From UHGV virus genome UHGV-0388326: a stretch of DNA of 39,034 nt; one strand, given 5' to 3'. This stretch comes from a virus. Below, in pieces: positions 20,004-20,417 of this stretch (the stretch's first letter is position 1; each line of letters starts with the position of its first letter). The translations under genes were made by a program, and so were the position numbers. The notes beneath the pieces were generated by a model. The model had not been told where the DNA came from. It did not search any database and was given only the letters and a program-made list of their open reading frames with translations.

Positions 20004-20417
20004 ATGAAGGAATTATTGCTGTTATCGGTATTTTTGATATCCGCTTGCTCGACATCCTATGATGTTTATGACGGTGTTGATAAGGCATATTGCGACAAAG
20101 TTAAAATGGATTTTTCTCTTGCCAAGACGGCGAAGGATAGTTGTATTGATCACTACGTCAAGACTTATACCAAGCCAGCCTCATCGGCATCTGATATTGC
20201 TGAAGGTGCTGTGTTTGAGTGTAACAAGGTGATATCCATCGCAGCGAGTTCTTCATACGATGCTGCTGTATGTGCAATGGCTGAAAGAAACGGCATGTCA
20301 GTGCAAAAAATTAATAGCATGATAAGCAGTAATGACGAAGCCAAAATAAGAACTGATATCAGCTCGGTGAAAAAAGATGCCATGAACAGAGTTGTAAAAT
20401 ATCAGTCATCTTTATAA
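20004..20417 (+). CDS. lipoprotein (accessory gene)
   Basis: Signal peptide with lipobox MKELLLLSVFLISAC; AT-rich; followed by palindrome and terminator. Confidence 0.6.
   Translation: MKELLLLSVFLISACSTSYDVYDGVDKAYCDKVKMDFSLAKTAKDSCIDHYVKTYTKPASSASDIAEGAVFECNKVISIAASSSYDAAVCAMAERNGMSVQKINSMISSNDEAKIRTDISSVKKDAMNRVVKYQSSL

What the first reader, a model, noticed from the sequence alone, without database searches (positions are those of the whole stretch)
20004..20417. Lipoprotein accessory gene at the end of the virion operon
A 137-aa protein with a lipobox (LISAC) directly follows the ejection-protein genes and has its own terminator. It is AT-rich relative to neighbours. Prophage lipoproteins in this position often mediate superinfection exclusion (Cor-like) or envelope modification.
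Basis: partly seen in the sequence, partly recalled or inferred. Interest (0 to 1): 0.4.

Follow-up and report, generated by a model that had tools for sequence, protein, structure and literature searches.

The report
Swappable prophage lipoprotein cassette, function untested
A phiV10/epsilon15-like E. coli prophage carries, just after its last internal-virion-protein gene, an exchangeable accessory gene for a small outer-membrane lipoprotein of an uncharacterised family that also occurs on genomic islands and tiny plasmids; it probably protects the carrier cell at the envelope, but this is untested.

Summary
The 137-aa ORF at 20004-20417 (+) has a good RBS and a PROSITE-type lipobox (LISA-C15, Ser at +2). 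It starts 9 nt after the gp17-like virion gene, is followed by a terminator, and has 39% GC against 48.5% for the window.

New findings:
- The gene fills a cassette slot with sharp borders. Related phages carry other envelope proteins there: a 46-aa two-helix peptide, a multi-pass membrane protein, or an unrelated lipoprotein. The terminator belongs to the conserved backbone, not to this gene.
- About 533 of 5,426 complete E. coli genomes have the flanks. Only 22 have this gene, and no deposited phage has it.
- The family is tiny, about 22 clusters among 5.8 billion proteins. All members keep the lipid-attachment Cys and four more Cys.
- The AlphaFold2 model is confident and all-helical, with no specific fold match.
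- Members occupy the same slot in prophages whose gp17 is only 24-25% identical, and also occur in Morganellaceae integrative islands and 2.4-4 kb Col3M plasmids.

Best reading: an outer-membrane-anchored periplasmic binding protein that gives exclusion or immunity at the envelope. This is circumstantial. There is no homology to Cor, SieA, Ltp or Spackle, and no promoter of its own. It is a new member of a known kind, of moderate interest.

The parts
17520..19994 (+). gp17-like 824-aa virion (internal/ejection-type) protein gene. Its stop codon is the left border of the cassette slot.
   Evidence: phrog_684 'virion structural protein', E = 0. Equivalent to PhiV10p20. The last about 40 nt are conserved in 26 phage records and about 533 E. 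coli genomes.
19993..19997 (+). AAGGA ribosome-binding site, 6 nt before the ATG and overlapping the gp17 stop. The 'TAAGGA' part is conserved backbone shared by most cassette types.
   Evidence: Read from the sequence. Junction alignment of the cassette types.
20004..20045 (+). Lipoprotein signal peptide, residues 1-14 (MKELLLLSVFLISA).
   Evidence: PROSITE PS51257 rule met. The lipobox is kept in all family members although the hydrophobic core varies.
20046..20048 (+). Cys15 codon, the predicted lipid-attachment residue. It is followed by Ser (+2), with no Asp at +2, the inner-membrane retention signal.
   Evidence: C15 is invariant in alignments A1 and A2. The +2 residue is Ser or Thr in all 8 members. 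The sorting rule itself is established knowledge and was not tested here.
20046..20414 (+). Mature 123-aa all-helical domain with four invariant Cys (C30, C47, C73, C90). Their codons are at 20091-3, 20142-4, 20220-2 and 20271-3.
   Evidence: AlphaFold2 mean pLDDT 85 (above 90 for most of residues 21-110), helices 24-55, 62-72, 74-96, 100-106, 109-115 and 119-136. Invariant columns C30, C47, C73, C90, D26 and S99. The spacing 30+90 = 47+73 fits two disulfide staples across an antiparallel helical hairpin (inference).
20421..20432 (.). Perfect 12-bp palindrome GTGACATGTCAC. It forms the right border of every cassette type, immediately 5' of the terminator.
   Evidence: Junction alignment. Three exact copies in the window, at 670, 2935 and 20421. 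Two exact copies in phiV10.
20433..20458 (+). Intrinsic terminator (stem 20433-20450 plus T-run). It is conserved backbone and ends the late virion transcription unit.
   Evidence: Annotated as a terminator in phiV10. Identical downstream of all cassette types.
20459..20623 (-). Convergent neighbour: a 55-aa secreted peptide gene (signal peptide ...TQAFA|G, Gly/Arg/Asp-rich mature part with 2 Cys). It is not part of the cassette but part of the conserved right flank.
   Evidence: phrog_14503 'membrane associated protein', E = 2.6e-40. Annotated 'transmembrane anchored protein' in E. coli genomes and in TL-2011b.

Best explanation
The gene encodes a genuine exported lipoprotein. After signal peptidase II cleavage, the lipidated Cys15 (Ser at +2) should anchor a 123-residue helical domain, probably stapled by two disulfides, to the periplasmic face of the outer membrane.

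The gene is not part of the phage's core. It is one of several interchangeable cassettes dropped precisely between the stop codon of the last internal-virion-protein gene and the operon terminator of phiV10/epsilon15-like prophages. It is read through from that operon.

I think the most likely function is protective binding in the periplasm. The protein would bind a component that an incoming agent has to deploy there to cross the envelope, and so exclude it from the cell that carries the element. The most likely agent is another short-tailed phage's ejection or cell-wall-piercing apparatus, or the periplasmic face of an outer-membrane receptor.

What is shown: the gene, the lipobox, the conserved Cys pattern, the cassette polymorphism, and carriage by three kinds of mobile element. 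What is inferred: the localisation, the disulfides, and the whole exclusion mechanism and its target.
For: 1. Lipoprotein. The PS51257 rule is met in all 8 members, and Cys15 is invariant while the hydrophobic core drifts. Four further invariant Cys in a predicted helical hairpin point to an oxidising, periplasmic location.

2. Accessory cassette. The borders are sharp, at ...CCGCAATAA|GGA and CGTGACATGTCACA|GGCCGC. In 78 loci where the slot could be measured, there are four cargo types: a 46-aa two-helix peptide; a 57-aa peptide plus a 98/118-aa multi-pass membrane protein; a 41/43-aa peptide plus an unrelated lipoprotein; and this lipoprotein. Every one is an envelope protein, and the slot was never empty.

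3. Horizontal movement. The Cedecea prophage copy is 55% identical, while the adjacent gp17 is only 24% identical. A 26%-identical member sits in the same slot of a third lineage. GC is far below the neighbours in two lineages.

4. Use outside virions. Members lie in Providencia and Morganella integrase/AlpA/DUF3987/YfjJ islands, next to variable cargo that includes type I and type III restriction-modification and helicase systems. Members are also one of only two annotated genes on a 2.4-kb Col3M plasmid.

5. Positional analogy. P22 sieA also abuts the last ejection-protein gene, next to an antirepressor immunity region (PMC10883804). The window has a P1-type C4 antisense RNA plus a Bro-N antirepressor in the equivalent place.
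Against: No functional test exists, and the family has no characterised relative. It shows no significant sequence or fold similarity to Cor, Llp, Ltp, SieA, Spackle, TraT or any PADLOC defence protein.

There are only 9 nt upstream (2 nt in Cedecea) and no sigma-70-like promoter within 400 nt. Expression may therefore be confined to the late lytic phase, which fits classical prophage exclusion poorly.

P22 sieA differs. It is on the opposite strand, has its own promoter, and encodes an inner-membrane protein.

In the Providencia islands the gene sits beside IS remnants, so its nearness to defence genes may be incidental.
Confidence: 0.42

Rival explanations
1. Host-fitness or virulence cargo gene. 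An outer-membrane lipoprotein that alters envelope properties for the benefit of the carrier bacterium, for example serum resistance, envelope robustness or adhesion, in the way lambda Bor/Iss or plasmid TraT do, with no role against phages.
For: It is carried by prophages, islands and tiny plasmids of gut and clinical Enterobacterales. It is AT-rich foreign cargo. It is a lipoprotein with an outer-membrane sorting signal. The E. coli hosts include pathogenic strains from pigs and poultry.
Against: There is no similarity to Bor/Iss, Lom or TraT. All the alternative cargos in the slot are small inner-membrane peptides or proteins, which look more like entry blockers than surface virulence factors. 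No lysogen promoter is evident.
Confidence: 0.2
2. Late lytic-cycle helper. The protein is made with the virion proteins and acts in the infected cell's periplasm. It might tune lysis timing, protect against lysis from without, or stop progeny or sister phages from wasting their DNA on the dying cell or its debris, as the T5 Llp lipoprotein is known to do (from my own knowledge; not checked here).
For: It is wired to the late operon both translationally and transcriptionally: a 9-nt gap, a shared RBS and stop, and the first terminator only after the gene. The same holds in Cedecea, with a 2-nt gap. The slot is always occupied.
Against: A complete lysis cassette (holins, endolysin, Rz/Rz1 spanins) lies elsewhere, at 26373-28179, as in phiV10. 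Family members on 2.4-kb plasmids and on islands have no lytic cycle to serve. The cargos of the slot have unrelated topologies.
Confidence: 0.15
3. Orphan immunity protein. A periplasmic lipoprotein that neutralises a periplasm-acting toxin, such as a peptidoglycan-degrading bacteriocin or a type VI secretion effector, and is spread by mobile elements as a stand-alone antidote.
For: It is a small, helical, disulfide-containing periplasmic lipoprotein, a common format for such immunity proteins (established knowledge). It occurs as a single gene without a partner on Col-type plasmids and islands.
Against: No toxin gene is adjacent in any context seen. There is no fold or sequence match to known immunity families. 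Recurrent placement in the same phage slot across lineages with 24-25% identical gp17 points to a phage-related role.
Confidence: 0.12
4. Virion component or assembly factor that belongs to the structural operon.
For: It lies at the end of the virion gene block and is co-transcribed with it.
Against: It has a Sec/lipoprotein export signal. The gene is absent from every deposited phage of the group, which carry different cargo there. Homologues occur on plasmids and islands without virion genes.
Confidence: 0.03

Closest known systems
P22 SieA (superinfection exclusion A)
   Same: It is encoded directly beside the last ejection-protein gene of a temperate short-tailed phage, next to an antirepressor immunity region and upstream of the tailspike (window). 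It is an envelope protein. SieA blocks DNA delivery by interfering with the ejection-protein conduit (PMC10883804).
   Different: [quoted passage not shown] There is no sequence similarity. The protein here is a lipoprotein predicted to go to the outer membrane, with no promoter of its own.
Cor (phi80/N15/HK022) and T5 Llp: lipoproteins that inactivate the FhuA receptor
   Same: They are small phage-encoded outer-membrane lipoproteins. Cor lies at the distal end of the late/tail gene block (from my own knowledge; not tested here).
   Different: No homology was found: the only significant hit is phrog_8691, of unknown function, and the fold searches found nothing. The phiV10 group uses O-antigen as its receptor, and phiV10 already blocks adsorption with an O-acetyltransferase. 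The window's counterpart is the Acyl_transf_3 gene at 25119-26210.
T4 Spackle (Sp, PF25676), a periplasmic inhibitor of the incoming tail lysozyme gp5
   Same: It is a small helical periplasmic protein. Both have Cys at position 15 in an L-[AS]-[SA]-C context, followed 7-8 residues later by G-x-D-K-x-x-C-[DE]. Both have a late 'Y-C' Cys that could pair with the first one.
Ltp of Streptococcus thermophilus phage TP-J34
   Same: It is a prophage lipoprotein of about 140 aa with a helical extracellular or periplasmic domain. It blocks DNA injection by binding a virion protein (PMC3952083 for the family; the target is from my own knowledge).
   Different: Its host is Gram-positive. There is no sequence or fold match.
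Phage 'morons' such as lambda bor and lom
   Same: It is a discrete AT-rich insert between conserved genes, followed by a terminator, dispensable and variably present.
   Different: Classical morons bring their own promoter. Here there is no space for one, and the terminator is backbone.

Membership tests
Bacterial lipoproteins (Lgt/LspA substrates; PROSITE PS51257) | N-terminal signal peptide with K/R in the first 7 residues, an uncharged hydrophobic stretch, and a lipobox [LIVMFWSTAG]2-[LIVMFYSTAGCQ]-[AGS]-C with Cys at position 15-35 | tested here: met
   The rule was applied by script to the window protein and 7 relatives, and all match. Cys15 is invariant. One relative also hits Pfam LPAM_1.
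Bacterial lipoproteins (Lgt/LspA substrates; PROSITE PS51257) | Actual lipidation and globomycin-sensitive processing; outer-membrane localisation | not testable with these tools
   There is only the sorting-rule inference from Ser/Thr at +2.
Phage moron / accessory cassette | Present or absent, or replaced, between conserved flanks in otherwise similar genomes | tested here: met
   There are four cargo types between identical borders. 22 of about 533 E. coli genomes with the flanks carry this one. It is absent from all deposited phages.
Phage moron / accessory cassette | Own promoter and own terminator | tested here: not met
   The upstream gap is 9 nt and there is no sigma-70 consensus within 400 nt. 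The terminator is shared backbone.
Phage moron / accessory cassette | Base composition deviating from the neighbours | tested here: met
   GC is 0.394 against 0.486 in the window, and 0.36 against 0.56 in Cedecea.
Cor / Llp receptor-blocking lipoproteins | Sequence or fold homology to Cor or Llp | tested here: not met
   PHROGs gives only phrog_8691 and a weak phrog_3392 hit, both of unknown function. No Pfam or NCBIfam hit reaches its cutoff. There is no fold hit.
Cor / Llp receptor-blocking lipoproteins | Blocks infection by phages that use a given outer-membrane receptor | not testable with these tools
   This needs plating and adsorption assays.
P22 SieA-type exclusion proteins | Polytopic inner-membrane protein homologous to one of the SieA types | tested here: not met
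   The mature domain is soluble (GRAVY -0.28, no hydrophobic helix after Cys15). There is no family hit.
P22 SieA-type exclusion proteins | Gene adjacent to the last ejection-protein gene, next to the antirepressor immunity region | tested here: met
   Window layout compared with the P22 annotation. The orientation differs.
T4 Spackle (PF25676) | Significant match of the mature domain to the Spackle profile or fold | tested here: not met
   Pfam E = 0.82, 10.7 bits against a cutoff of 27. hhalign on the mature parts gives 1% probability. Spackle was not among the PDB fold hits listed. Only the short motif GxDKxxC[DE] is shared.
PADLOC anti-phage defence proteins | Match to any of the 5,027 defence-system models | tested here: not met
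   No hit at E <= 0.1.

The most novel reading that the evidence does not exclude
The family is a previously unrecognised, mobile-element-borne periplasmic inhibitor that works like T4 Spackle. It would be an outer-membrane-tethered helical protein that binds and disables the cell-wall-piercing or channel-forming proteins ejected by incoming short-tailed phages. The slot after gp17 would be a dedicated, hot-swappable exclusion locus of epsilon15-like phages, whose palindrome-marked borders promote cassette exchange. If so, its spread to Col3M plasmids and integrative islands would mean these elements also use it to shield their hosts.
Probability: 0.25. Interest if true: 0.6.

Novelty: new member of a known kind. 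Interest (0 to 1): 0.4.

Why it matters

A slot that sits right behind the ejection-type genes, is always filled, and cycles between unrelated small envelope proteins would be a compact natural library of candidate entry blockers for this phage group. That group includes phiV10, which is used in E. coli O157 detection.

The lipoprotein family is also one of only two annotated genes on 2.4-kb Col3M plasmids, the replicon type linked to qnrD and blaNDM-1 in Proteus, Providencia and Morganella (PMC10581215). Knowing its function would help explain what keeps those plasmids in their hosts.

If the gene turns out to be an ordinary fitness gene, the result is modest.

Tried and rejected
- Sequence families. 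Pfam, NCBIfam, PADLOC and PDB sequence searches gave only sub-threshold chance hits: Linker_histone at 19.5 bits against a cutoff of 22.4, Trans_coact, CC_3452_fam at 16.4 against 40, and MtN13 at E = 0.67. All were rejected.
- Deposited phages. tblastn of the protein found no match.
- One genome per species. The first scan with exact peptide patterns found nothing. I did not use the second scan.
- Spackle homology. The promising 76.6% hhalign probability was traced to the signal peptide. The mature-only comparison gave 1%.
- Co-divergence with gp17. This was rejected: 55% against 24% identity.
- dN/dS within E. coli. There were too few differences, 2 synonymous and 3 non-synonymous sites.
- Rfam. 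No RNA family lies in or next to the gene.
- Promoter search. The 400 nt upstream gave no better than 8 of 12 consensus matches.
- Antisense ORFs inside the gene (72, 57 and 43 aa). They were not examined further and are presumed spurious.

Full report
**What the window is.** The window is essentially a complete phiV10/epsilon15-like (Uetakevirus) temperate podophage genome of E. coli. Megablast of 19000-22000 hits phiV10, phiv142-3, TL-2011b and related phages at 91-97% identity, in patches. The gene order matches the annotated phiV10 genome.

**The observation.**
- The ORF at 20004..20417 (+), 137 aa, exists as described.
- An AAGGA ribosome-binding site sits 6 nt before the ATG and overlaps the TAA stop of the preceding 824-aa gene, 17520..19994.
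- That gene is a full-length match to phrog_684 'virion structural protein' and to PhiV10p20.
- It closes a block of internal-virion-protein genes. 12627..13199 hits Pfam T7_gp14. phiV10 annotates the equivalents as internal virion proteins. In two related prophages the first large protein of the block carries an SLT transglycosylase domain.
- The N-terminus MKELLLLSVFLISA-C15-STS meets the PROSITE PS51257 lipoprotein rule.
- A terminator follows: stem 20433-20450 plus a T-run, -17.7 kcal/mol, z = -3.3.
- GC is 0.394 against 0.486 for gp17 and 0.485 for the window.

**It is a real gene and a real lipoprotein family.**
- The word-indexed search of 5.8 billion proteins found 17 clusters: E. coli, Enterobacter and Citrobacter at 95-99% identity, one cluster at 82%, and Cedecea at 55%.
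- An exhaustive HMMER profile search of 1.84 billion representatives found only 7 hits and added members at 44% and 26-27% identity.
- A second profile search added Morganella and a 'Pseudomonadota' plasmid form, for 22 clusters in all.
- Across the 8-sequence alignment the only invariant residues are M1, C15, D26, C30, C47, C73, C90 and S99.
- Every member meets the lipobox rule and has Ser or Thr at +2. By the established Asp+2 retention rule this predicts transfer to the outer membrane.
- AlphaFold2 gives a confident all-helical model: mean pLDDT 85, above 90 for most of residues 21-110, with helices 24-55, 62-72, 74-96, 100-106, 109-115 and 119-136.
- The four Cys lie 17 residues apart on two consecutive long helices, and 30+90 = 47+73. 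This is what two disulfide staples across an antiparallel hairpin would give. I infer this from the sequence and could not inspect the coordinates.

**No known relative.**
- Pfam, NCBIfam, PADLOC and PDB sequence searches gave only sub-threshold noise.
- PHROGs places the protein in phrog_8691, of unknown function, at E = 1.6e-91.
- A faint Pfam hit to T4 Spackle (E = 0.82) was followed up. A profile-profile comparison with a 12-sequence Spackle alignment gave 76.6% probability, but only over the signal peptide plus a short motif. After removing the signal peptides the probability fell to 1%, E = 0.05. Homology is not supported.
- What remains is a shared motif. Both proteins have Cys15 in a lipobox-like context, followed 7-8 residues later by G-x-D-K-x-x-C-[DE].

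**The main new finding: a cassette slot.**
- The protein has no tblastn match in 50,697 deposited phage records. The 40 nt before the gene and the 50 nt after it are nevertheless found in 26 phages and in 533 of 5,426 complete E. coli genomes. Only 22 of those genomes carry the gene itself.
- I extracted the interval between the gp17 stop and the terminator from 84 sequences: 80 IMG/VR contigs chosen by the gp17 C-terminus, phiV10, phiv142-3, UMNK88 and the window. It could be measured in 78.
  - 170 bp, n = 16 (plus L063, which starts with the same gene but differs downstream): a 46-aa peptide with two membrane helices, PhiV10p21.
  - 439 bp, n = 22: this lipoprotein.
  - 501/502 bp, n = 35: a 57-aa membrane peptide plus a 98/118-aa multi-pass membrane protein, phrog_3075.
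  - 609 bp, n = 4: a 41/43-aa membrane peptide plus an unrelated lipoprotein, MRKVFLIFGFMLLVGC..., phrog_3716.
- The sample is ranked by similarity to the window's gp17, so it over-represents the lipoprotein type.
- The borders are sharp. All types share ...CCGCAATAA|GGA on the left and CGTGACATGTCACA|GGCCGC on the right. The terminator therefore belongs to the backbone and not to this gene.
- No empty slot was seen, and every cargo is an envelope protein.
- Loci with at least 99% identical gp17 C-termini can carry different cassettes, for example L011, L016, L019 and L027. Exchange therefore happens right at the gp17 stop.

**The cassette moves, but to the same place.**
- In Cedecea the 55%-identical gene lies 2 nt after a gp17 homologue that is only 24% identical to the window's. 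It is again followed by a terminator and by a convergent antirepressor, tailspike, acyltransferase and lysis genes. Its GC is 0.36 against 0.56 for gp17.
- A 26%-identical member occupies the same region of a third lineage (gp17 25% identical), after one extra 191-aa gene.

**The family is also used outside phages.**
- In Providencia and Morganella it lies in integrase/AlpA/DUF3987/YfjJ integrative islands, between the island core and variable cargo.
  - The cargo includes type I and type III restriction-modification genes, a UvrD-type helicase with a 2,140-aa DEAD/MZB helicase, a ThiF-ThiF-ABC ATPase module, and an antirestriction/RadC block.
  - In Providencia it is embedded in a 2.3-2.6 kb conserved block that also holds IS fragments. 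Its nearness to defence genes is suggestive but could be incidental.
- A 142-aa member is carried by 2.4-4.0 kb Col3M plasmids of Proteus and Providencia. It is one of only two annotated genes on the 2.4-kb plasmid.
- These contexts rule out a role tied to virion structure. They point to a function that pays for itself in any cell carrying a mobile element.

**Expression.**
- There are 9 nt between the gp17 stop and the ATG (2 nt in Cedecea). No sigma-70-type site better than 8 of 12 matches lies within 400 nt upstream.
- As far as sequence shows, the gene is read through from the late virion operon. Whether it is also expressed in the lysogen is unknown, and this is the main weakness of the exclusion hypothesis.
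- P22 sieA is the best-studied gene in the analogous position. It is on the opposite strand with its own promoter and encodes an inner-membrane protein. It blocks DNA delivery, and escape mutations fall in the ejection proteins gp16 and gp20 (PMC10883804).
- The analogy extends to the neighbourhood. The window has a P1/P7-type C4 antisense RNA with its a1/b1 targets (22254-22451, minus strand; C4 66 bits against a gathering score of 45) upstream of a Bro-N antirepressor. This amounts to an immI-like region between the ejection-type genes and the tailspike.

**Interpretation.**
- The best-supported reading is an outer-membrane-anchored periplasmic binding protein that confers exclusion or immunity at the envelope, most likely against incoming short-tailed phages (about 0.4).
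- The rivals are:
  - a Bor/TraT-like host-fitness lipoprotein (about 0.2);
  - a late lytic-cycle helper (about 0.15);
  - an orphan immunity protein against periplasm-acting toxins (about 0.12);
  - a virion component (about 0.03).
- None can be separated further without experiments.

**Verdict.** The gene is a new member of a known kind, a mobile-element accessory lipoprotein and candidate exclusion factor. It belongs to an uncharacterised family with no detectable relatives and sits in a neatly defined exchange slot. Interest is moderate.

Noticed in passing
window 670-681, 2935-2946, 20421-20432 (exact); 5941-5952 (1 mismatch); 28176-28187 (2 mismatches): The perfect 12-bp palindrome GTGACATGTCAC occurs three times exactly, against about 0.002 expected for a 12-mer in 39 kb (my own arithmetic). 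The three copies lie next to the ends of genes: just before terS, right after the terL terminator, and at the right border of the cassette slot. phiV10 has exact copies at the two equivalent internal sites, and its linear record starts and ends in the centre of a 1-mismatch copy (...GTGA|CATGTTAC...). It could be a protein-binding, packaging or recombination site that marks cassette borders.
   Followed up: partly
window 20459-20623 (-): A conserved 55-aa secreted peptide gene converges on the lipoprotein gene. It has a signal peptide ending TQAFA and a Gly/Arg/Asp-rich 31-aa mature part with 2 Cys. It matches phrog_14503 'membrane associated protein'. Read by eye from the sequence, a TTGACG-16-TATAGA promoter-like site lies about 13 nt upstream of its ATG. 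It is downstream of a minus-strand terminator at 20712-20694, so it looks independently transcribed and is a better candidate for lysogen expression than the lipoprotein gene. In position and orientation it matches P22 sieA more closely.
   Followed up: partly
window 22254-22451 (-): Rfam finds a C4 antisense RNA (66 bits, gathering score 45), isrK (63.5 bits, gathering score 50) and the c4 a1/b1 target element (43.4 bits, just below its gathering score of 46.7), upstream of the Bro-N antirepressor gene 21495-22220 (-). This is a P1/P7-style immI antirepressor control module in an epsilon15-like podophage.
   Followed up: no
window 20711-21297 (-): A second AT-rich variable patch (GC 0.37-0.39) holds two genes of unknown function: 125 aa (phrog_14518) and 72 aa (phrog_14630). 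They lie between the antirepressor and the small secreted peptide gene. Related phages and genomes carry different genes here; TL-2011b has a YafO-family toxin in the region.
   Followed up: no
L105:2759-3052 (T4 sp) and alignment A3: In T4 Spackle and 11 homologues, S14-C15 in an L/V-A/S-S-C context inside the 'signal peptide' is invariant. This is lipobox-like, although the protein is described as periplasmic in the T4 record. The motif G-x-D-K-x-x-C-[DE] follows 7-8 residues later, as in the family studied here.
   Followed up: partly
L052, L068, L071, L081 (slot after gp17, 609-bp cassette): A different lipoprotein (MRKVFLIFGFMLLVGC..., about 126 aa from that Met, phrog_3716, no Pfam hit) plus a 41/43-aa membrane peptide occupies the same slot. 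This is a second, unrelated lipoprotein solution at the same position.
   Followed up: partly
L096, L097 (metagenome contigs): Contigs carrying the plasmid form of the family are assembled as tandem repeats of about 6.2 kb and about 3.7 kb units, presumably circular plasmids. Besides the lipoprotein gene, one carries a GNVR (Wzz-like) protein and the other a pentapeptide-repeat protein.
   Followed up: no
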